A stretch of DNA of 40,046 nucleotides, taken from the NCBI GenBank assembly GCA_040437565.1, contig JBDOQK010000093.1, positions 1 to 40,046 of the forward strand, read 5' to 3'. Below, piece after piece: positions 1-39,905 of this stretch. Numbering within the stretch: position 1 is the stretch's first letter; every line of letters starts with the position of its first letter. A program made the translations under genes and the position numbers. The notes under the pieces are model-generated. The model saw only the letters and a list, made by a program, of their open reading frames with translations, was not told the DNA's origin and ran no database searches. The stretch comes from Albugo candida. Lineage: Eukaryota.

Positions 1-138
1 TAAACCCATAAACCATAAACCCATAAACCATAAACCCATAAACCATAAACCCATAAACCATAAACCCATAAACCATAAACCATAAACCATAAACCATAAA
101 CCATAAACCATAAACCATAAACCATAAACCATAAACCC
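1..138 (-). repeat. Telomeric array of variant repeats (C-strand TAAACCCA/TAAACCA; G-strand TTTATGGG/TTTATGG)
   Basis: 1-75 is (TAAACCCA TAAACCA)x5, 76-131 is (TAAACCA)x8 and 132-138 is one canonical TAAACCC. The C-rich strand lies at the 5' end of the sequence, as expected for a left telomere. Confidence 0.92.
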
Positions 139-141
139 TAA

Positions 142-440
142 CATCATATACAGAAAGGATTTGAAACCAACTGATCTTTTACTCTTTTTCAAATCTAGCG
201 GAGAACTAGAAAAAATCAGAAATATTACTTTAATAAAAAGCAGTGTCATGAATCACTTTAAATCTTGTAGAAAAGTAAAAATAATTAGTAATACATTATT
301 ACTGTTTTTTCTAAAAGCTGATTATTATTTCACTACTGAGCCCATAATGAAAAATTCATCTCATCATATTCAAAATAGATTAAAGGCTAACTGAACTTTT
401 TCATTTTTTTAATCTAGTAGAAACTAGAAATAATCAATAA
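142..440. repeat. AT-rich telomere-associated (subtelomeric) repeat
   Basis: The block CATCATAT...AACTGA.CTTTT...AATCTAG..G.AACTAGAAA.AATCA occurs at 142 and again at 362 (220-bp spacing). A related sub-unit lies near 256-290. Confidence 0.7.
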
Positions 441-474
441 GAGATCGCTTTTGAATTCGAACTTACTCAGCAAC

Positions 475-1276
475 ATGAGTTTAATTCTTCCCATGTGGCA
501 AACGCTATCCCGCCAGGAAGTTGTCAGAGCGCATGCCGACTCCCAGTATGAGTGGCTCTGTACTGACGAGGAAGTGCTGATGAGCTTTCTTACGACTCGC
601 TTCCGAAGGTAGCTCCTTCAGAAAAGAGCAACAAGATTCATCGCATGAACTTTTTCCGGCTGCTGTTTTTACAGAAGCGACACAAAATGTGTCCGGATGC
701 GATCGTAGAAGCATGGAACAAGGAGTATGTCAAGTTGCATGAGGATTGGATGGGAAAACTGAAGGTTTGTGACAGTGAATGGATGCGACCTATCGACGGG
801 TTGAAGTTCTATGTACACATTGGTTCAATTAGGGAGCGTATTCCTTGCGCTGTGCGATTGAAGTACACATGTCCACACTGCCCTGCAAGGGCACTGAAAT
901 TCAACCATGAACTTCGAGCCCATCCGTGCTACGAAATGTTGAGCACGCAACTTCTTACGGCAATTGGAAATTTGGACGATCTCTTTGCCCAATTCGCATT
1001 GGAACAACGTGAATTTCACGTTATTGTTTGATGGATCGCCGATCATTTGATGTTTTTTCGCTTGGCGTTTCGGAAATGAACGAAGCTACATGCGATGTCA
1101 AAGCGATGCAGGCTGCATTTTCACGATGCGAGGAGGTGAGAAAATTGAAGGAACATGATCGGCAAGAAGCTTTGGCTCAACTCACAAGGTCGGTCAAGGA
1201 AACTGCTGATTTCATCAGGAGGTTGAAGCGCAAAGTAGATGATCTCGAGAATAGGTCCAAGCTTAAAAATGAATAA
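475..1276 (+). pseudogene. Telomere-proximal gene of unknown function (CxxC...HxC motif plus C-terminal coiled coil), frameshifted
   Basis: ATG at 475 reads to a stop at 610. ORF 645-1031 carries CPHCPARALKFNHELRAHPC. ORF 1028-1276 is heptad-rich (EVRKLKEHDRQEALAQLTRSVKETADFIRRLKRKVDDLE). The second copy at 2153 joins the last two ORFs in frame (LEQREPSRYCLMDRR). Confidence 0.45.
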
Positions 1277-2038
1277 GAGAAAACCTTACATGTTTATATT
1301 ATATTTTCCAAAATTGAAGCTAACTCATGATACATTATGGGAAGACAGCATGGAATGAATGTAATTGAAGCTACTAAATGAGTTATGGCTTCTTAGATTA
1401 TGATAACCAAAACGAAGAACACAAGAAGCTTCGGTGGTGGCGTAACAGACTATCATCCTGTGTTGACTTGACCAAAAACTACTTCAACACCTATAAGATC
1501 GGATGAATCCAATATGGTAGGTTTGTACTACACTGGCGTGGAATGTAAAGCTGATTACGACGGATTAAATAAACGATAATAATCACTATGTAAGAGGTTG
1601 CTTCATACCCACACAGTCTTTGATCCCATCACATCTCGTCTGTTTATATAATGTCGGTAAGAGCTCCATAATACCTTAAATGTAGATATGACGACTCCAC
1701 ATGCGATAAACTTCCATTTAGACTCCTGGTTGTCGAAATGAATGGTTTCAACGCATAAATTAGGATCAGGCACATCTCTCCCCGCTGATGTGAATACTGC
1801 TTGCACACTGAATCGTGTGATAAACAACCAAGTCCGTTTGGCTTGCTCAATCAAACAAAACTGAAGCAAGTCCATTTCGAGCGCGTGATGATTGTAATGA
1901 ATGTATAGCCCATACACGCACTTCCATTTTACTACGCAACAAAATCAGTCGTTTAATTTCCCATTTGCTCTACAGTGGATCACCTTGCAAATAGTTTCAT
2001 AATTTCTCGATTCAGGCATCCAAAGGCGTTAAGTTCCT

Positions 2039-2138
2039 NNNNNNNNNNNNNNNNNNNNNNNNNNNNNNNNNNNNNNNNNNNNNNNNNNNNNNNNNNNNNN
2101 NNNNNNNNNNNNNNNNNNNNNNNNNNNNNNNNNNNNNN
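2039..2138. other. Assembly gap (100 N)
   Basis: Run of exactly 100 N. Confidence 0.99.
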
Positions 2139-2152
2139 TGTTCCAATGCGAA

Positions 2153-2428
2153 TTGGAACAACGTGAACCTTCACGTTATTGTTTGATGGATCGCCGATCA
2201 TTTGATGTTTTCTCCCTTGGCGTTTCGGAAATGACCCAAGCTACATGCGATGTCAAAGCGATGCAGGCTGCATTTTCACGATGCGAGGAGGTGAGAAAAT
2301 TGAAGGAACATGATCGGCAAGAAGCTTTGGTCCAACTCAGAAAGTCGGTTAAGGAAACCGCTGATATCATCAGGAGGTTGAAGCGCAAAGTAGATGATCT
2401 CGAGAATAGGTCCAAGCATAAAAAATAA
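2153..2428 (+). CDS. 3' part of the second copy of the telomere-proximal coiled-coil gene (5' end lost in the gap)
   Basis: 91-aa ORF nearly identical to 1028-1276, with in-frame LEQREPSRYCL upstream. Confidence 0.35.
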   Translation: MEQREPSRYCLMDRRSFDVFSLGVSEMTQATCDVKAMQAAFSRCEEVRKLKEHDRQEALVQLRKSVKETADIIRRLKRKVDDLENRSKHKK

Positions 2429-5400
2429 TAAGTGAAAAACTTTACATGTTTATATTATATTTTCCGAAATTGAAGCTAACTCATGATACATTATGGGAAG
2501 ACAGCATGGATGAATGTAATTGAAGCTACTAAATTAGTTATGGCTTCTTAGATTATGATAACAAAAATGAAGAACACAAGAAGCTTCGGTGGTGGCGTAT
2601 GAGACTATCATCCTGTGTTGACTTGACCAAAAACTACTTCAACACCAATAAGATCGGATGAACCCGATATGATAGTGTTGTAGTACACTGACGTAGAATG
2701 TAAAGCTGATTACGATGGATTAAATAAACGATAATATCACTATGTAAGAAGTTGCTTCATGCCCACACAGTCTTTGATCCCATCACATCTCGTCTGTTTA
2801 TATCATGTCGGTAAGAGCTCCATAATACCTTAAATGTAGATGTGACGATTTCCCATGCGATAAACTTCCATTTGATCTCCTGGTTGTCGAAATGAATGGT
2901 TTCAACGCATAAATTAGGATCAGGCACGTCTCGCCCCGCTGATGTGAATATTGCTTGCACACTGAATCGTGTGATATACAACCAAGTCCGTTTGGCTTGC
3001 TCAATAAAACAAAATTGAAGCAAGTCAATTTCGAGCGCGTGATGATTGTAATGAATGTATAGCCCATACAGGCACTTCCATTTTACAATGCAGCAAAATC
3101 AGTCGTTTATTTCCCATTTGCTCTACATTTGATCACCTTGCAAATAGTTTCATAATTTCTCGATTCAGGCATCCAAAGGCGTTAAGTTCCTCGATGCTGT
3201 TACCAAAAATCAGCCAATTCTAGACAGATGAGCTGTCATCTTCATCTCCGTCGTCGGATGTATATACAAAAGCTGCAAGAAGATCGCTTCAATCACAAAA
3301 TTTGCTATGTTTGTTATTTTGATCCATTGAGCTTGAGAAGGAATCACAACCTTCCGTCATTATCCTTTTCGCTACTTATATCTTCGAAGCAAAATGACAT
3401 AATAACGATTACTAGAATATGATTTCCGATTGCGTAACAATGACATTTTGTGAAGCCTTACGATGGCATCAAGATAATAGTTGGAGGTGCTTCTTTAGTT
3501 TCTTCCGTTATGATTCAATTTCAAAATCAAATATGAAAAATATATATACACGAATTCAATCAAACTCGCCGTACCGGACACGCGACCGATGTATATATGC
3601 ACCGAAGCAGATACTCAATTTTTTTTGACCTTGGACGCACTGCCGCTTACCTCTTTAGCAATGTCGACTAAAGCAAGACGAGCTTGCCACCTACAAATCA
3701 TTTGAGTAGCGTCAAATATGGCTTCTTAGGCGTGTCTATCATTTAAAGATCCGTAGTATATGTGAATAGTTGAAAGTCATTATCATGACTGAACTTGTGA
3801 CAACACTGCTAGAAAGCGGCATCATCACTACATTGGAAGAAGGTACAACAGTTCTTGCGTCACGAAACGCAATACTTTCTTGCGAACAGTCACTTTGATT
3901 CTATGATTGCGGCTCAAGGATTAAATTGATTTACTCAGTCGATAGCCATCTCAAATGGTATTGCTCATTTCGTTTTGAAACCGTCCTAAATGCGCAGCCG
4001 TTATCCCTTTCATCGTTTTCTGATCGGAATCGGAAGACACATTTGTCACGAAGGACCTCCATGAGAGGAGGTCAAATTCCATTTAGTTGATGCTTGTTTG
4101 CCAAACAGCAATAAATAAATGTTCCGCTGTTCATGAAGTCAGGCTTCGCACGAAACGAATTTTTTCAATATGAGCTGCGCTCGTCATAGCTTTGATTTCG
4201 TTTATGCGTTCGGGAACCTTCCGCAAGGCCACACTCTCGGCGGCACGGAACAACGGGTTACTGAATCTGCGAATCATCAATTGGTAAAGCTCCGCCATCA
4301 GGTCAAACCAAGCCTTCAATCTCCTCGTTCAACTTCTTCGAGTTCTTGATCTTCTTCTCTTCTTTCAAAGTACTGTCTCATCCATATTCAAGTTTTTGGA
4401 TATCATTGTTGGTATCTGATAATTCTAGCACATTCTTGTGAAGCGCTTCCTCAAGACTGTCATGTAATTACTGTCCATCGCTAGCCGCAAGATGTATTTT
4501 ACTTCTTTTATCGTGTTCATCCGACACTTTTGTACACTCGACAACCACATCAAAATGTTATTTTTCATATTCACCTTTCTCTGACACAATCCGACCCCAT
4601 ATTGCATGCATGATCATTTTATCCACCTAAACAATTTGAAAATCTATCGGGAAAGACGACTCCATCACAAAAGGAAGCGAGCATCCAGCCCTCCGTGTTG
4701 AAAAGATGTCTTTTTTCGACTCTACCTGTGCAATTGAGATTACACCAGCGAAATTGTCAGCTTCTCGGCTTGATCTTTGGGATGGCGAAGACCTTCTGAA
4801 TATAGTCAAACTTATTTTTGAAGCATGCTTATTGTCGTCAGCAAACATGTCGACCAAACTAAACACACCAATCTACTTTGGCCATGAAATCTAAGGATCA
4901 ACAGTGTTGCACGAGAAAGAGTGAGGGTGGTATAGGCGGTGATTTTTCTTACTATGCAAGCATTCTGTGAGTAGTTCAAGCTCAGACACGACTTTTATCA
5001 AATACAATTCATCTACTAATGAACGTTCCTTTCAAAAGTCTTCACTGGTCGGACCAATTCTACTTGATCGAGCCACAGCTTTCTCGTCGAGCGCATCGAT
5101 ATCCTTCCATTTTCCATCGATAGAACAAACGTTGAATAATAGTATAATCATTTATAACAGCTAATTTGAGCTACCGATGCTGGATTACTAGATCATTATG
5201 GAATAGATTAAGGCTAAAGACCTAGATGGAGACAAATCACATCATGACGTCATTCCGCTATGAGGATCAATGTATAGCTATTGACTGACGAGTGGGCTCG
5301 GTATAAGTTATCTGGCACTTTTTCTTAGATGAAGACAGGTAGTGCATTCTCATTTCTCCATAATAGGTGTTGACAGTCGCGTTTTTGCGTATTGTGTGAT

Positions 5401-7000: not shown

Positions 7001-8830
7001 AAGTGTTGATATTATTATTGCACGCATATATATTAGACACGAGATATAAGTCGTAGTGTTTACAGACGCTAGTGTTTATTAAAAGCATAATACAAAAACT
7101 AGTCGAAGTATGAAACAAAAAAGTGAACCGAATGATGGGAGCGTTAGTACATCAGAAGGCTGGATATTATATTCAGAAGATGGAGGAAATGTTAATGTCA
7201 CAATCACATGGACGCATATTAGATACTAGAGGTAATATAAGCGTAGTGTTGACGACCGGTAGTGATTAAGAAGAGTTTTATACAATAAGTAGTCAAAGTA
7301 TAAAAGAATAATGTGAATCCATCGATGGAGGCGTTAGTACCTAAGTAGTGCTAAATATTATACCAACAGATGTTGCAAGTGTTGATCTAATCAACGCATA
7401 CAGGTATATTTGATACTGGAGGAAGTATACGTCGTCGTACTCCCAAACGCTTCTGATTGAGTGGCATTTAAAACAAAAACCACTCAAAGTATAAATCAAT
7501 AAAGGGATTCATGCGATGGGGGCGTCAGTATACATGTACAGCTAGATAGTATAAAGAAAGTGTTAATGTTATGAGGGCATATACGTATATTTGACAATGT
7601 CACAAGTCTTAATATTGAGGTATACTAGTGAGAAGGAAAATAAGGAAAAAGTAAAAAAGCTAATCAAAGTATGAAATAGTAAAGGGAATCCGATGATGGG
7701 GCTTAGCATAAGTAAAGCTAGATACTACATCAGAAATTAGACAAAGTGGTGCAGTTATGCACGTATGCAGGTATATTAGACACTTGAGGCAGAATAAGTC
7801 GTAGTATTCACTAGCGCTGAAGAACTTAATACAGAAACTAATCAAAGTATGAAACAATAAAGGGAATCTTGTGATGGTAAAGGTAGATATTACATCAGAA
7901 GATAGACAAAGTGCTGCTGTTATAAATGTATGCAGTTATATCAGACACTTGAGGTAATATAAGTCGTAGTATACACGAAAGCTCGTCATAGAAAACAACA
8001 ACTAATCAAAGTATAAACAATAAAGGGAATCTTGTGATGGGGGCGTGATTATACAGGTACAGCTACAATATAACTATCAAACAGAAGAAGTGTTGATGTT
8101 ATACACGTATATACGTATATTAGAGACTGGAGGTAATGTAAGTCGTAGTTTACACGAACGCTTGTGATTTAGAAGGAATGTGTGCATAAACTGATCAGAG
8201 TATAAATTAAGAAAGGGATCGTAGGGTGGGGGCGTTATCAAAACGTAAAAGCTTGATATTTATCAGAATTTTGCTGAAGTGTTGGTGTTAGAAACGTATA
8301 CACGTATACTAATAGCGGTACAAGTAGCATTACTATTCACGAATGGTAGTGATTAAGAATGACTTGCAATAAAAACGTATCAAAGTATGAAAAATGTACG
8401 GATTGTATGATAGGAACGTAAGCACATCAGTAAGACAAGATAATATATCAGAATATACTGGAACTACTGCTGATGTGATAAAACGTATGCACGTATATTA
8501 AACAATGGAGGGAATATAAGTCTGCCATTTGACAAACTCAAGTAATTACGAAGAATATGAAATAAAACTAAACAAAGTATAAAACAAGGAAGGGAGTAGT
8601 ATCACGGGGGGGTGAGAGAACACAAGTAAAGCGATAAATTATATCATCAGATAGAAGTGTTAATATTATACACACATATACGTATATTAGAGACTGGTGG
8701 TAACATAAGTCGTAGTATTCACAAACGCTTGTAATTAAGACGGATTTGATACAAAACCTGATCAAAGTATGAAACAATATAGGGAATTGTATGATGAGGG
8801 CACTAACGTATAAAATAAACTTAGGTACAC
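7001..8830. repeat. Diverged tandem satellite, ~10 copies of a ~185-bp monomer
   Basis: The landmark TCAAAGTAT(G/A)AA (allowing one mismatch) falls at 7103, 7293, 7484, 7664, 7842, 8006, 8195, 8380, 8572 and 8762, a spacing of 164-192 bp. Copies share AAGTGTT, CGTATATTAGA, TAAGTCGTAGT and AAGGGAAT..TGATGG(G) motifs. Confidence 0.92.
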
Positions 8831-17417: not shown

Positions 17418-19597
17418 TTAGTCTTCGATGCTGAAATCTGTGCTTGGGTGCATGACTCGTACTCCCTGCTTAAACACCTGAACGATTCGCCTTTGGAAGA
17501 ATAAATTCGTCGCACACAAGTTCAGACCACAAGTATAAAAGCCAATATCATCCTCTACAGGCCCCATCTCTTCACCAGCACGAAGTATCATTCTGCGCTG
17601 TGCCACACTTAAAATGAGATATGAATTCTTGCGACTCCTGGCTCCATAATCATGAAAATCAGAGTTCATGACGATGACAGTCCACAAAACACGACAACCA
17701 CTCAATTTGGCGGCTGTACTGACAATTGGTCTCAGTCCATCGTTCATTGAAGAAATCGAGCCATCTTTGGAACTTCCTCGGCTCACTAACAGTTCTTCGT
17801 GTTGTTCGTTCGAGTTCGAATTCGATTGTGCCCCAAGATCCATCGATTTGATTTGTCCAATAACTGGAATATAATAGACCGTTTTTAAATGAAGACTGTG
17901 GTCGTCCTCTTTCATTGAAGCATACGAAAATCAATTTGTGCTGGGAACTGCACCCCCAGTCAATTCTTGTGATATTATAGTTTCGACTGATGGGTCATTA
18001 CTTAGAACAACAGCGACAAGAATTGTTTTCCTCGAAATCATAGTCTGACGATGGACTTGTACAAAACAGAATTTCCATGTCGCGATCCAATGAAAATACT
18101 GTCATTGTCGCGATTGATCAATTCACAAGATGCAGTCGACGCCGGGGTTTCCACTTTGCGCAATATGAATCTCCCAGTATGATTATACGACGATGAGCCA
18201 TGAAGACTGCTGCTTTGACCAGCAAAATTTGATAACGCTGTGGATGAATTGGGCTTGATCGCATGCGTGAGCTCTAGCAACCTTCGTGCTGTAGACGCGA
18301 GCCGAGGAAGATATTTTGTAAAAGTGACACGAACGGATTCATCTGAATCGATTGGAAACCGATACATGGTGTCGAGAATGTATTGCAGGAAGACCGAAGC
18401 ATCGGATAATGGCACTGTTGCGATCAAATCCAGGATGAAGGTGAAAGTGCAGAGCGCTAATGCTAGTATAGAAGCCACGGAATCTTTTAGCACTTCCAAA
18501 AGAAACGGGACCAGACGCAAAACTGTCTGTGAGATACTATGAGCCCAATTTCCGAGCATTTGGATCTAATTGCAGCATATCGAGTAGTAAATTCTCCAAA
18601 ATTGAATCTTCAATCAGTGTAGCGACCCAGAAGCTCGTACCTCCTGTTCGAGGATATTTCAAAAATGCAGGACGATCAGATAGAGGTTTCCTCCCTTAAA
18701 TAGTTTAGCAATAGCACAACCAGCCGAGAAAATATCCATCCATTCATAAACCGTTCCTCCCCTGGATGCTCTAGAATTCTCATTTGCATTCCCAGTAGTA
18801 GTCGATGCTTCAGACGGCGAAATGATGTACATTCCACCCAGAACGCTTCCAGGCGACAGAACTGCGGGTGATGGGTCTTTATCAGTTTCGGTCTGTTTCC
18901 TTCCCATATCTTCCAATCGCATTGCGTTCACAAATCCTTCCAAATTTGGACTAGAAAATCGCTCTGGCGCCACATTACAGCTCCTTCCGCTTCCACCAAT
19001 CGGACAGTAATAGTAATGATACTCAGATGGATCGTCTTCCGTGATATAAGGCGGTTTGAAAGGCGCGAATTCCGTAAGAAAGAGCCAATTCCACGTGACA
19101 ATCATCAGATTCCAATTTTACGTCGCCATGACACACACCTTCCCGATGACATTGCTCTACTGCTTTTAACAATTGAAAAGGTATCCAATTTTCCCAATTT
19201 TGCTTGAGAATGGACGTCAGAAAACTCGATCGTATAAACTCATTGCGAAATACTGACGCACGAGGAAGGGGACATGATGTTTACTCGAGAAATGGTAGTT
19301 TGCGTATGGAATAGGATTGGGAACGGCTTCCAGCAGGATCAAAACAGATGACACAAGGCGTATTTATGTGAACGGAAGTGAGTGTATCTTGAAGATCATA
19401 TTGACAGCACAATTTGATCACCACCATCACTCCGTCGTCACATTCACATCAAATGGTTTTGAAGAATTTGCTATCGGCAAGGATGCGTTGAATACGATGT
19501 TGGGATTGGAATAGGAGTAGTCTATCAGAAAGGTGCGGTATTGTGAGCCAGAGTCGTAAGGGCTTGCGTGTTGAGAGCGCGCGACCGCGTTGCCCAT
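17418..19597 (-). pseudogene. VPS15: VPS15/PIK3R4 (class III PI3K regulatory kinase) pseudogene, kinase plus HEAT region
   Basis: Starts MGNAVARSQ (ATG at 19597, myristoylation-type MGN). Kinase motifs include LADSKFFKTI, CHGDVK, WNWLFLTEFAPFKPPYITEDDPSEY, CNVAPERF and MDIFSAGCAIAKLF. The HEAT segment reads LVPFLLEVLKD...DESVRVTFTKYLPRLASTARRLLE. Multiple frameshifts and stops; no WD40 region is recognisable. Confidence 0.9.
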
Positions 19598-25121: not shown

Positions 25122-28100
25122 TTAAAAAATCTGTCCAGTGCTATTGAATAAATTAACTCCCCTCAGTAGCGCTAATTTTGCAAACTTGTACAGTTTTTGC
25201 TCCGTGTTGTACTGATACTGAACTTTAACAGCCATAAACCGCGTTATTGAATTGAAGCCGGCAGGTAAAGGCAAAAGGCAAAGGAACAAGTAAACTCGTT
25301 GTGACATTTGATGCTGAGAACAGAGCGTGTGTACACCTTCCTCATCATATTACCATACATACAATCGCTAAAATTAACTGTCGGGTCTGTCTTTTGGGTT
25401 TCCACAAGCGAAAGCAAAGACAAAATCGTCTCGGGCTGAATATGCAGGAATACAAAGATGAAAAATAGCAATTGGCGCGGCGCAAAGAGGTTTTTACATT
25501 TACAAGGTTTTTTCTGTTTGTTCGAGCTGACCTTCATTCTGCTCTGATTTCATAGAAACGAATCAATCAGGTGCGCATTTCAAGGAAGGTGTGCGGTAAC
25601 CAAAATGATACCGTTTTAACGTGCAACTCGCTGATAAGCGCGCCGTAGGTCGTCCAATTCGAGGAGTCACACTCAAAATATCACTTTCCGAGTGTCGTGA
25701 CTGTGGTGACGTCGTTGGATGCGATCCCAAGTGACCACGATGAGCTAGATTGACAAGATCTGAAAGATTTGGCTGCGATCAAAAAAAGAAAAGGGGTTTA
25801 ACGCAGAATGTGTCACTCTTCCAGCAAATCTAATTTAAACGGCGCGGAATCGCGCTCCCGTCCGAAAGAGTCAAATCGAAGGAAGCACGTAAAAATCAGA
25901 ATTATGCGAGTAAAAAGGGCACAAAATTCGATCCACGATGCCGTTTTGATGATTACAGAAAAACAAATGCACAAAGAAATTACAAAGGATTTGAATTTCT
26001 CGCAAACAGAAATCGAAAGCGTTGAAAACCATGGCGCCAGAATATTAACTCAAATACATGAAACGCTTTGGTATAGGCCATTTGGAACAGAGGATAGGTC
26101 CATGCGCCGTCGCTGTATTTGGAATCTGCGCCACAAGCAGTTGTATGTCTCAATCCTGACCTAAAGCATTGAATTTGTTCTCTAAGGGAGGCGTTTGAAA
26201 AGCGGGATATTGAGAGCTTTGATCGTCCAAGACTTGAAAAAGCTGGCAAAGCTGTATCCACAGGACGCTGCAGATATACACTTTGCATGATCCATTGGGC
26301 ATTCACGATTGAAATATTCCATTCTTTGGCTTTGTCGTATTCCATTGCAAAAAGATTCAATAAAATAAGATGGGTATTGCATCTGATCAATTCTCTGGTG
26401 AAATGTTGCACCCATAAGCTCCAAGAGTTGTAGGATGACCACACGATCCACGCCGACGTGGACGAAGACGGTGGAAGATACTTTTTTGTAGCAATCTAAT
26501 GGATGTGATGCCGCTATAATGGATCGGAAGGACGCTCTTAAAGTTTCATTTGAGTTAAAATCATGGAGAAAGAGCTCATGACATCGACGTGAAAACAGGT
26601 TCCGTTCCAACAAGCACCAACAATGCCAAATGTCGGAAATAAAGTGGAGTCGAGCTCTGTACATGACTTGCTGTGATACGCATCAACACTAGACTCCAGT
26701 TCTTGCACGATTGCTGACGATATTGACGCTTCCTTACAGATAAAAATGTGTGTGACAAACTCAAACTGAAGAAATGATAGACTCGACGCATACCGATGAT
26801 TGATTGCGAATGCTTGGACACCGGGATCTCTTCCTATCGATGAATAAATTTTGGGATTTGTGATTGACTGGTATCTACACACAAAGACAACAATACGGAT
26901 TCCGGTTTGAATAGTGGCTTTACATCTATCTCAAGACTTTTATTCGTACCCTGAACGACACCATAAGCGAGTGCAGGAAAGGATGGATAGGTTGCTGGAG
27001 TATCGTTTGGTCCAGCTAGCGTGCAAGAAAAGTCTTGTTCCAGCTTTATTGAATCTCGAAGCAATGATTCGATCACCCACTCTGCAGAGACGCAATTCAA
27101 CGTAGGGTAGCCCGTTTGTAACGACTTTGATTGGTGCATCATGCTCTTGTCAAGATGCTCAAGTGTGGGAATCACAATAGATGCAAAACACGTTCAGGAC
27201 CCCAATCGTAATGCACCGTTCCCATTCCGATGCGTATCAATTGCAGCAACAAGACTCTTTTCTCGGTCATGAATCCAACCAAGTGGAACGTGCAAACATC
27301 GAATAGCTCCAAGTAATCATCCACTCTCGATTCCATGATCCGAACAAGTACACATTTCAAAAATTCAGTCGCGGGGTTGATCGAGTTTGCTGTACAGTTG
27401 GCTTGGCTTGTAAACTTTTTCCAACGCATACGCGGCCATCAAGAGCATACCTACACATACATCAGACAAGGAAGGAACATTACAAATACGTACGATTTGC
27501 TTGGATGGAGTCATGAAGCCACGAAATATGAAAGATCGGAATCTGATTCTGTAAAGCTGTCTCATACCTGATACCAATGGCGCCTGTGCGATGACAAGAT
27601 TTGTTTTTCCGACTTCCAGATTGGCATCATACACAGCTTTATGTTGTTTGCCCGATGGTTGGACTTCATCCCACTAAAACAGCAAAGGCCCTTTGTAGTG
27701 AGTGTCAAGCCTTTCAAAAGCCCAAGACCGTACATTGCGGTATCGTGTAAATTTGACGCTGGTCCAGATCGTGTCGGCATGGTCGCGTAGCGGTACTTTA
27801 CATAGCAAGTGCTGTCGTCTGGTGTCCCCGAAACAATTCTATACAACCCAATTTTCACCATATGAGCCATGAACAATTTACATTGTAAATTCCCAACGTG
27901 TTCAGACGAGTTCTTTGAAGTTCGAAGCGATGGCCTCTTTGGAATGCTTTGTGATAAACTCCTCGCTCACTGCGTAATCGTATGTCATATGGAGAAAGAG
28001 AAAGTGAGTCAAAGCTTTGGCATTACAAATCGCAAATGCGTACCCCGATGAGCTGATGGACGCAAGTAACGTTCCTCTCACAAAGCCGATGCGCTCGGAC

Positions 28101-34748: not shown

Positions 34749-34985
34749 AGCGGATAGACTTAATTCGACCAATGAAGAGGCCTTTGTAGACGGTTATGAG
34801 CCAATCAGCGTCCGTATAAATCTAATCAACAGCTTGATAGACTCAACCCGGCCAATGAAGAGGCCTTTGTAGCCCTTTATGAGCCAATCAGCGTCCATTT
34901 GAACAAATCACCAGCTTCAATGGACTTAATTGGACTAATAAAGTGGCCTTAGGAGCTGTTAAAAGCCAATCAACGTCCGGTTCAC
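34749..34985. repeat. Tandem repeat, 3 x 83 bp, CCAAT-rich
   Basis: CCAATGAAGAGGCCTTTGTAG occurs at 34769 and 34852, with the degenerate CTAATAAAGTGGCCTT at 34935. Each unit also has GCCAATCA(G/A)CGTCC. Confidence 0.88.
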
Positions 34986-39041: not shown

Positions 39042-39905
39042 TTCTAGATTCCTGCTAGATTTGAAAAATAAAGAAAAAGTACACAGATTTTCTCTATATG
39101 CAGTATTATAATGCGCTTAGTGAGTTATTAGACCGCTTTTATTACGGTAACATTTCTCATTATTTTTAATTCTCTATTATATTTAATGTAAGTGAGTTAT
39201 CAGACTGTTATTTTATTATAGTAATAATATTGATTCTTTCTAGTTTTCTACTAGGTTTAAAGTAAGTGAGTTATTACACTGCTATTTATTACGGTATTAT
39301 TTCTGATTAGGGTAGATTTAAAGTAAGTGAGTTATCTGACTGCTTTATAATATAGTAAGGGATCCGCTAACGACCCATCACCCCCATATTTCCAGCTGAT
39401 CACAGACCTCCATTTTTATCCTCCCTCCTATTTTGAAATCAACGTGTGGAGTGAGCTTTNNNNNNNNNNNNNNNNNNNNNNNNNNNNNNNNNNNNNNNNN
39501 NNNNNNNNNNNNNNNNNNNNNNNNNNNNNNNNNNNNNNNNNNNNNNNNNNNNNNNNNNNTTAATTGAACTTTGAGGTACGGAAAGTTTTATTTGCGGTGC
39601 GCAAGTTCGGTTGATGGTCCAAGATGCATGATATGCGGATACTTGGGCTGGTAGTGTAAAGTACAACGGCAAGATGAAGTACGGTTTCAAATATAGAAAT
39701 TCAAAGTACGTGAGGTATTAGACTGCTTTTTGTTACAGTATATTTCTGATTATTTCTAGTTTCTATTAGATTTAAAATATAGAAATAGTTCAGTTGGTTT
39801 TTAGTCTATTTCGTGTATGATTGGATGAACTAAATTCATGCGCTCAGTCAGCAATGAGATAATAGTCCGCTTTTATTATAGTAATAGTGTTGTTTTTTTC
39901 TAGTG
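39042..39905 (-). repeat. Inverted copies of the telomere-associated AT-rich repeat (39042-39360 and ~39700-39905)
   Basis: 39747-39765 is the exact reverse complement of 418-436 (TAGAAACTAGAAATAATCA). The reverse complement of 39042-39067 resembles 185-211. Tandem ~60-75-bp sub-units AGTGAGTTAT..AC(T/C)G...TTAT lie at 39119-39360. Confidence 0.8.
39460..39559. other. Assembly gap (100 N)
   Basis: Run of exactly 100 N. Confidence 0.99.

What the first reader, a model, noticed from the sequence alone, without database searches (positions are those of the whole stretch)
1..138. Non-canonical telomere repeat TTTATGG/TTTATGGG
Seen: the terminal array is built from TAAACCA and TAAACCCA units, not the CCCTAAA unit. 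Known: TTTAGGG is the repeat reported for well-studied oomycetes and most plants. Inference: this lineage has an altered telomerase RNA template, and possibly co-adapted telomere-binding proteins. I cannot confirm whether this motif is already catalogued.
Basis: partly seen in the sequence, partly recalled or inferred. Interest (0 to 1): 0.8.

Follow-up and report, generated by a model that had tools for sequence, protein, structure and literature searches.

The report
Variant telomere repeat in Albugo-like oomycete
The scaffold of a white-rust-like oomycete starts with a chromosome-end repeat that reads TTTATGG or TTTATGGG rather than the TTTAGGG used by other oomycetes, which points to a changed telomerase template but rests so far on a single assembled end.

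Summary
Window 1-131 is 18 perfect units: 5 TAAACCCA and 13 TAAACCA. One TAAACCC unit follows, then unique DNA. No shuffle reproduced the array. The window has no CCCTAAA dimer.

The window is the whole 40,046-base record. The array therefore sits at a record end, with the C-strand reading inward, as at a telomere.

The closest named proteins are from Albugo candida and A. laibachii, so the organism is an Albugo-like oomycete.

A public-run contig bridges the array-to-flank junction without a mismatch. The same repeat also joins other flanks in three of four runs.

Best reading (0.64): this is a telomerase-made telomere with motif TTTATGG(G), one letter from oomycete TTTAGGG.

Main rival (0.22): it is a proximal variant block with canonical repeats further out.

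Limits:
- No genome was held, so other ends and the telomerase RNA could not be examined.
- Raw reads were not available.
- Two of four runs gave no cover on the array.
- Three contigs in one run carry degenerate CCCTAAA-like letters on the distal side.

The motif was not found in the searched literature. A 2011 supplement that I could not open may list it for A. laibachii.

The parts
1..75 (+). Distal block of the array: five exact copies of the 15-letter pair TAAACCCA+TAAACCA. This is the C-strand; the G-strand reads TTTATGGG/TTTATGG towards the record end.
   Evidence: (period 15, 98% matches). Only run X1 of the four laid gave depth here (31.9).
76..131 (+). Proximal block: eight exact TAAACCA units. 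With the five in the distal block this makes 13 seven-letter units.
   Evidence: (8 matches of the 14-mer, 0 of 100 shuffles with any). Depth in bin 69-136 was 314 in X1 and 685 in X13, against about 20 and about 4 in the unique flank. It was 0.94 in X4 and 0 in X5.
132..142 (+). Junction unit TAAACCC+TAAC. It is one canonical-type (CCCTAAA-like) unit at the base of the array and may be a relic of an ancestral TTTAGGG repeat.
   Evidence: A 205-letter contig of X1 covers 112-316 with 0 other letters and 0 gaps, so the array and flank are physically joined (table 8, record 1).
143..474 (.). AT-rich subtelomeric spacer without a long ORF. It is polymorphic between runs.
   Evidence: In X1 and X4 one contig each joins 238 to 407 with 21 other letters between, so 168 letters are replaced (tables 5 and 5c).
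487..1031 (+). First gene-like unit inside the telomere, a member of a small family seen so far only with Albugo-type relatives.
   Evidence: ORF 567-1028 has three hits: 53% and 49% identity to two unnamed proteins and 48% to an 'unnamed protein product [Albugo candida]'. Window 487-579 matches the N-terminus of that A. candida protein at 84% over 31 residues. No Pfam family was found. In the four runs, depth here is 2-5 times that of the unique flank and there are many variant letters, as for a multi-copy subtelomeric element.
1015..3191 (+). Two tandem copies of a unit of about 1,154 bases, interrupted by the 100-N gap at 2039-2138.
   Evidence: The copy pairs 1015-1287/2170-2442, 1265-1354/2421-2510, 1355-1581/2510-2736, 1582-1881/2736-3035 and 1953-2038/3106-3191 are 90-97% identical at a spacing of 1153-1156. 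The N run is shown.

Best explanation
Window 1-138 is the inner part of a true telomere of an Albugo-like (white blister rust) oomycete. I infer that its telomerase now adds TTTATGG, and sometimes TTTATGGG, to the 3' end of the G-strand. The cause would be a template in its telomerase RNA of the type CCAUAAACC(C)AUAAA. This differs at one position, G to T in the DNA repeat, from the TTTAGGG-making template of other oomycetes. The 7/8-letter mix would come from variable copying of the G run or from two alignment registers on the template. Shown here: the array, its position at a record end, its polarity, its physical link to the flank, and the Albugo affinity. Inferred: synthesis by telomerase, presence at all ends, and the template change.
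For: 1. There are 18 perfect units with no decay, far beyond chance.
2. The window is the whole record, because its annotated protein lies on a contig of 40,046 bases. The array is therefore at a record end, and the C-rich strand reads 5'->3' inward, as at every known telomere.
3. The motif is one substitution away from TTTAGGG, the motif of the organism's relatives. One canonical-type unit sits at the base of the array.
4. An independent-run contig covers 112-316 without a mismatch, so this is not a chimeric join.
5. The repeat is joined to other flanks in 3 of the 4 runs laid. Loose ends behind places 136-142 number 3 in X1, 1 in X4 and 2 in X13. Two of these share the letters TCATAT with the window's own flank.
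6. Depth on 69-136 is about 15 times (X1) and about 150 times (X13) that of the unique flank.
7. The flank looks like a subtelomere: an AT-rich polymorphic spacer, a multi-copy lineage-specific gene and a 1,154-base tandem duplication.
8. In A. laibachii, a close relative, 25 contigs were reported to end in telomeric repeats, out of 45 contigs holding 5,925 bp in all. That is about 130 bp per contig, the size seen here. These figures come from passages of PMC3130010, which do not give the motif.
9. Two metagenome contigs of other organisms (L048, L116) start with pure TAAACCA arrays in telomere orientation, with CCCTAAA-like units inside them.
Against: 1. Only one end could be seen. No genome is held.
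2. Only assembled contigs were available, not raw reads, and contigs cannot show where molecules end.
3. X4 and X5 hold the flank at depth 11-17 but give 0.94 and 0 on the array. X5 has no cover at all before about 341.
4. The depth excess of 15-150 fold is far less than I would expect for some 25 telomeres of several hundred bases each. The tool warns that these depths are summed over contigs and filtered, so this is weak either way.
5. In X1, three contigs carry CCCTAAA-like letters on the distal side of short TAAACCA stretches (places 54, 98, 106). They are degenerate and the run is large, so host-plant DNA is a likely source, but this was not shown. TTTATGG is described as a common variant in Arabidopsis thaliana telomeres.
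6. The motif at a contig end is not telling in itself. Among 16 TAAACC(N)A arrays at true ends of metagenome contigs, 8 had telomere orientation and 8 the opposite.
7. The exact order of 7- and 8-letter units in a short-read assembly may be an assembler's path rather than the real order.
Confidence: 0.64

Rival explanations
1. The array is a proximal block of variant repeats. The scaffold does reach a chromosome end, but the bulk of the telomere further out is ordinary (TTTAGGG)n. That bulk was not assembled, and TTTATGG(G) is a fixed variant zone at the base, as is known in human and Arabidopsis telomeres.
For: Short-read assemblies stop about 100-150 bases into a telomere, so only the base is seen (138 bases here). 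The two homogeneous blocks, 1-75 and 76-131, resemble variant-repeat blocks. Three X1 contigs show CCCTAAA-like letters distal to TAAACCA stretches. TTTATGG is reported as a frequent variant of TTTAGGG at A. thaliana chromosome ends. The depth excess on the array is modest, and the array is absent in 2 of the 4 runs.
Against: No canonical unit occurs among the 18 distal units. The only canonical-type unit lies at the inner edge, the opposite of what a variant-to-canonical gradient predicts. The CCCTAAA-like loose ends are degenerate and mixed with non-repeat letters rather than pure arrays, and they occur only in the largest of the four runs laid. In L048 and L116 the pure TAAACCA block is distal and the canonical-like units are proximal.
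Confidence: 0.22
2. The array is an internal microsatellite at which the assembly broke. TAAACCA would then be an ordinary seven-letter simple repeat inside a chromosome, and its terminal position and polarity in the record would be coincidence.
For: Most arrays there are internal, and those at contig ends show no orientation bias (8 of 16). Correct polarity alone has even odds.
Against: The motif is one letter from the lineage's telomere motif and has a canonical-type unit at the junction. The flank has subtelomere features. The same array joins several related flanks. No further copy of the motif occurs in the other 39.9 kb.
Confidence: 0.09
3. The array is an artefact: host-plant telomere-like DNA wrongly joined to an oomycete scaffold, or a sequencing or assembly error that turned CCCTAAA into CCATAAA.
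For: The organism occurs in runs labelled as plant metagenome or as other organisms. Plant DNA with TTTATGG variants exists.
Against: A contig from a public run matches 112-316 exactly across the junction. All 18 units carry the same A after the C run, which random error would not produce. The flank pieces 962-1269 and 1448-1745 match three other runs with 0 other letters, so the record is accurate there.
Confidence: 0.05

Closest known systems
Plant-type (TTTAGGG)n telomeres of oomycetes (Phytophthora, Pythium/Globisporangium, Peronospora)
   Same: Both are seven-letter units that share six of seven letters. Both have the C-strand reading inward at the left end and are adjacent to repeated subtelomeric DNA. 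The host lineage is the same.
   Different: Position 5 of the unit is T rather than G, which breaks the GGG run to GG. An eight-letter form, TTTATGGG, is mixed in. No canonical dimer occurs in the window.
Lineages with a derived telomere motif from a changed telomerase RNA template. One search gives TTTTAGGG in some green algae and Theileria and TTTCGGG in Perkinsus. From my own recall: Allium, Cestrum and Genlisea in plants.
   Same: A single-step departure from the ancestral motif within a clade that otherwise keeps it. This is the same kind of event that I infer here.
   Different: In those cases the motif was confirmed at many ends, and in some the template RNA was found. Here neither was possible.
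Irregular telomeres with a variable G count. From my own recall: Paramecium TTGGGG/TTTGGG, Plasmodium TTYAGGG, fission yeast.
   Same: A mixture of two unit forms that differ by one letter, as with TTTATGG and TTTATGGG.
   Different: The strict 8/7 alternation in 1-75 followed by a pure seven-letter run is not the random mixture typical of those cases. It may also be an assembly path.
Proximal variant-repeat zones of canonical telomeres. TTTATGG is reported as a variant in Arabidopsis thaliana (passage of PMC10100673).
   Same: The same variant unit, located at the telomere base.
   Different: In those zones the variants are interspersed with canonical units and give way to them distally. Here there are 18 variant units and no canonical unit on the distal side.

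Membership tests
Telomerase-type telomeric minisatellite | A short (5-10 letter) T/A/G-rich unit in a perfect head-to-tail array | tested here: met
   18 perfect units of 7 or 8 letters. 0 of 100 shuffles gave any 14-mer match.
Telomerase-type telomeric minisatellite | Lies at the physical end of the chromosome | tested here: inconclusive
   It lies at base 1 of a record that is the whole 40,046-base scaffold. Whether the molecule ends there cannot be told from contigs.
Telomerase-type telomeric minisatellite | G-rich strand runs 5'->3' towards the end | tested here: met
   The + strand at the left end is the C-strand, TAAACC(C)A. By itself this has even odds: 8 of 16 control arrays at metagenome contig ends also had this orientation.
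Telomerase-type telomeric minisatellite | The same repeat is found at all or most chromosome ends | tested here: inconclusive
   The repeat joins other flanks in 3 of the 4 runs and has 15-150 fold excess depth in 2 of the 4. It has no cover in the other 2. No genome is held.
Telomerase-type telomeric minisatellite | Telomerase RNA carries about 1.5 copies of the complementary template | not testable with these tools
   There is no genome or transcriptome of the organism. Rfam found nothing in the window. No oomycete telomerase RNA is described in the main text of PMC8287931 (passages).
Telomerase-type telomeric minisatellite | Sensitive to exonuclease (BAL31), and extended by telomerase activity in vitro | not testable with these tools
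   These are bench tests.
Canonical oomycete/plant (TTTAGGG)n telomere | The unit is TTTAGGG / CCCTAAA | tested here: not met
   CCCTAAACCCTAAA with up to 1 mismatch gave 0 matches. There are no CCCTAAA or CCCTAA dimers. Only one canonical-type unit exists, at 132-142.
Albugo (Albuginales) genome | Best protein matches are to named Albugo proteins | tested here: met
   The VPS15-like ORF is 74% identical to A. candida and 68% to A. laibachii Nc14; these were the only 2 hits. The subtelomeric ORF is 48% identical to an A. candida protein, which is 1 of its 3 hits. The species was not determined, because both window genes are diverged or decayed copies.

The most novel reading that the evidence does not exclude
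The white blister rusts (Albuginales) have replaced the oomycete TTTAGGG telomere with TTTATGG(G) through a one-letter change in the telomerase RNA template, leaving single canonical units as relics at telomere bases. No oomycete telomerase RNA turned up in the papers I read, so a clade with a different template gives a direct comparative filter for finding it. The true RNA must read CCCUAAA-type in Phytophthora and CCAUAAA-type in Albugo. The change also breaks the GGG run, which would force changes in the proteins that bind the double-stranded repeat and the G-overhang.
Probability: 0.55. Interest if true: 0.6.

Novelty: new variant of a known kind. Interest (0 to 1): 0.5.

Why it matters
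1. Telomere motifs are usually fixed across large clades, and each departure is a natural experiment in how telomerase RNA, telomerase and end-binding proteins change together.

2. Pipelines that judge oomycete assemblies complete search only for TTTAGGG/CCCTAAA. They would score every Albugo chromosome end as lacking a telomere.

3. I found no oomycete telomerase RNA in the papers I read. A lineage with a one-letter-different repeat gives a sharp test for candidates.

4. A motif with only GG runs is less able to form stable G-quadruplexes. This bears on how ends are capped in these obligate plant parasites.

The claim rests on one assembled end plus indirect support from contigs, so it is a lead to confirm rather than a result.

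Tried and rejected
1. Whole genome. None is held for this window, so counting motifs at all contig ends and searching for the telomerase RNA were impossible.

Table S6 of PMC3130010 lists the telomeric consensus of A. laibachii and could not be read. It may already give this motif.

4. Metagenome scan for TAAACC(N)ATAAACC(N)ATAAACCA.
- No locus shares flank sequence with the window by blastn or by tblastn with 222 window ORFs, apart from repeat-on-repeat matches.
- Most arrays are internal microsatellites of unrelated organisms.
- Of the 18 arrays flagged within 30 bases of a locus end, I dropped 2 (L030, L031) because that locus end is not a contig end.
- Of the remaining 16, 8 were telomere-oriented. 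The scan therefore gives no general support, only the two leads L048 and L116.

5. Organism identification by other routes failed or was uninformative.
- Two Atlas searches gave only HEAT-repeat look-alikes with scattered taxa.
- An exact look-up found only the window's own protein.
- A search with the 206-residue ORF among longer proteins found nothing.

6. Rfam gave 0 matches at gathering scores.

7. Read laying.
- Parts without cover (bins 1-68 in X4, X5 and X13; bins 1-340 in X5) prove nothing.
- The depth figures are sums over contigs and cannot give a copy number.

8. I first took the short ORFs for an intron-rich or TOR-like gene region. This was rejected. The best-matched gene is a decayed copy with stops and a frame change.

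9. Literature.
- Twelve spellings of the 7- and 8-letter units as whole words and six dimers gave no paper naming them as an organism's telomere.
- 'Albugo' with 'telomer' gave 45 papers, of which 30 were listed.
- The two Albugo genome papers whose passages I read give no motif in the main text.
- The three later Albugo candida genome papers in the listing (the 2015 multi-isolate paper, the Ac2V reassembly preprint and the 2026 hybrid assembly) have 0 occurrences of 'telomer'.
- Eight of the 14 possible rotations of the seven-letter unit were not searched.

Full report
**The observation**

The first 142 bases of the window read as follows:
- five copies of TAAACCCA+TAAACCA (1-75);
- eight more TAAACCA (76-131);
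- TAAACCC+TAAC (132-142);
- then unique AT-rich DNA.

All 18 units, 5 of eight letters and 13 of seven, are perfect. Tandem Repeats Finder reports the array at period 7 (1-141, 19.4 copies) and at period 15 (1-138, 98% matches). The 14-mer TAAACCATAAACCA occurs 8 times, all inside 69-131, and none of 100 shuffles produced a single match.

The canonical plant/oomycete unit is absent as a repeat. CCCTAAACCCTAAA with up to one mismatch gives 0 matches, and no CCCTAAA or CCCTAA dimer exists in the window. The one nuance is that the innermost unit, TAAACCC followed by TAA, is of the canonical type.

**Where it sits**

An exact look-up of an ORF product from the window found it on a single contig of 40,046 bases, the length of the window. 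The window is therefore the whole record, and the array is at a record end.

The strand that reads inward from that end is the C-rich one, so the G-rich strand runs 5'->3' to the terminus. This is the universal telomere polarity.

The other end of the record has no repeat. The record is a scaffold with two 100-N gaps.

**Whose genome**

GC is 0.34-0.47 along the window. The closest proteins to a VPS15-like ORF are an Albugo candida protein (74% identity) and an A. laibachii Nc14 protein (68%). These were the only two hits.

The first ORF inside the telomere has three relatives: two unnamed and one from A. candida, at 53%, 49% and 48%. Its upstream exon matches the A. candida protein's N-terminus at 84% over 31 residues.

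The stretch 1-2038 is held by 20 of the 24 runs listed, from 12 studies. Several are labelled plant metagenome, which fits an obligate plant parasite.

I conclude that the organism is an Albugo-like oomycete. I did not determine the species, because both matched genes are diverged or decayed copies.

**Is the array real and linked to the flank?**

Contigs of four public runs from four studies were laid on 1-2038.
- One 205-letter contig of X1 covers 112-316 with no other letter and no gap, so the repeat and the unique flank are joined in an independent assembly of reads.
- Flank pieces 962-1269 and 1448-1745 match with 0 other letters in X1, X4 and X5, so the record is accurate there.

This rules out a chimeric join or a systematic base error.

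**Is it at more than one place?**

In the same call, contigs that match the array go on into other sequences behind places 136-142. There are three such contigs in X1, one in X4 and two in X13. Two of these flanks share TCATAT with the window's own flank, as paralogous chromosome ends would.

Summed depth on 69-136 is 314 in X1 and 685 in X13, against about 20 and about 4 in the unique flank.

Against this:
- X4 and X5 give 0.94 and 0 on the array although they hold the flank at depth 11-17.
- X5 has no cover before about 341.
- The tool warns that holes prove nothing and that depths are sums over contigs.
- The excess is also smaller than I would expect for some 25 full telomeres.
- Three X1 contigs carry CCCTAAA-like letters on the distal side of short TAAACCA stretches (places 54, 98, 106).

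Those three contigs are degenerate, mixed with non-repeat letters, and found only in the largest of the four runs laid. TTTATGG is described as a frequent variant in Arabidopsis thaliana telomeres. Host DNA is therefore a plausible source, but I could not show it.

**The flank looks like a subtelomere**

- 143-474 is an AT-rich spacer that is polymorphic between runs: a contig in X1 and in X4 replaces 239-406 by 21 letters.
- 487-1031 is a lineage-specific gene with raised depth and many variant letters.
- 1015-3191 holds two tandem copies of a 1,154-base unit at 90-97% identity.

**Control from metagenomes**

None shares flank sequence with the window.

Eighteen arrays lay within 30 bases of a locus end. 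I dropped two, L030 and L031, because that locus end is not a contig end. Of the remaining 16, eight have telomere orientation and eight the opposite. So the motif at a contig end is not evidence of a telomere in general.

Two contigs of other, more GC-rich organisms are of interest. L048 and L116 begin with 14 and 10 pure TAAACCA-type units in telomere orientation, followed inward by CCCTAAA-like units. This is the arrangement expected if TTTATGG replaced TTTAGGG at growing ends. Their organisms are unknown.

**Literature**

- TTTAGGG is stated as the oomycete type (passage of PMC3622300).
- It is the only motif searched for in telomere-to-telomere oomycete assemblies (passage of PMC11139960).
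- It is found at both ends of 17 Peronospora effusa chromosomes (passage of PMC11540230).
- For A. laibachii, passages of PMC3130010 report 45 contigs with telomeric repeats, 25 of them at a contig end, 5,925 bp in all, with the consensus in Table S6.
- The A. candida genome paper gives no motif (passage).
- By the listing, three later Albugo candida genome papers (the 2015 multi-isolate paper, the Ac2V reassembly preprint and the 2026 hybrid assembly) do not contain 'telomer'.
- Whole-word searches for six rotations each of the 7- and 8-letter units, and for six dimers anywhere in text, found no paper that names them as an organism's telomere.
- The main text of PMC8287931 describes no oomycete telomerase RNA (passages).

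**Reading**

The best explanation (0.64) is a genuine telomere whose telomerase adds TTTATGG(G), after a one-letter change of the RNA template from the oomycete TTTAGGG type. The single canonical-type unit at the base would be a relic.

The 7/8 mixture could reflect variable copying of the G run or two alignment registers. The strict alternation in 1-75 may also be an assembler's path.

The main rival (0.22) is a proximal variant block with canonical repeats beyond the assembled part. An internal microsatellite at an assembly break (0.09) and an artefact (0.05) are less likely, for the reasons given under each rival.

**Novelty and score**

This is a new variant of a known kind, a telomerase-type repeat with an altered unit. 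It may already be recorded in a 2011 supplement that I could not open.

A specialist would find it of moderate interest:
- It would be the first motif change within oomycetes.
- It would correct assembly-completeness checks for this group.
- It would give a comparative handle on the oomycete telomerase RNA, which I did not find described.

Because the evidence is one assembled end plus indirect contig support, I score interest at 0.5.

Noticed in passing
window 18215-19597 (- strand): A decayed copy of the VPS15 protein kinase gene. It aligns to residues 1-364 and 660-760 of the 1,970-residue Albugo candida protein at 61-77% identity. It has 8 in-frame stops and one frame change near 18690, residues 365-659 are missing, and nothing follows residue 760.
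   Followed up: yes
window 1-40046: The whole 40-kb scaffold has no ORF longer than 206 residues. Only 4 of 82 ORFs of 90 residues or more hit any Pfam family at E<=0.001, and only the BRCT hit (25983-26495, - strand) passes its curated cut-off. For a compact oomycete genome this looks like a tract of gene relics next to the telomere.
   Followed up: partly
window 7054-8806: A degenerate array of units of about 165-190 bases. TRF reports 7655-8031 at period 165 with 77% matches. The repeat finder families D3-D7 have 3-6 copies at 63-83% identity.
   Followed up: no
window 34753-34978: A tandem repeat of period 83 with 2.7 copies and 77% matches.
   Followed up: no
L048 1-160 and L116 1-140 (metagenome contigs): Contigs of other, more GC-rich organisms start with 14 and 10 pure TAAACCA-type units in telomere orientation, followed inward by CCCTAAA-like units. 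The same variant may therefore be used at chromosome ends elsewhere. L048 has no convincing ORF beside the array.
   Followed up: partly
L004 1200-1600 (metagenome contig): An internal 278-base array of TAAACCA mixed with TAAACCTA and TAAACCAA units lies next to a (TTTATGAG)n array. This shows that the motif also occurs as an ordinary internal microsatellite.
   Followed up: no
window 2039-2138 and 39460-39559: Two runs of exactly 100 N mark scaffold gaps. The first interrupts the 1,154-base tandem duplication.
   Followed up: no
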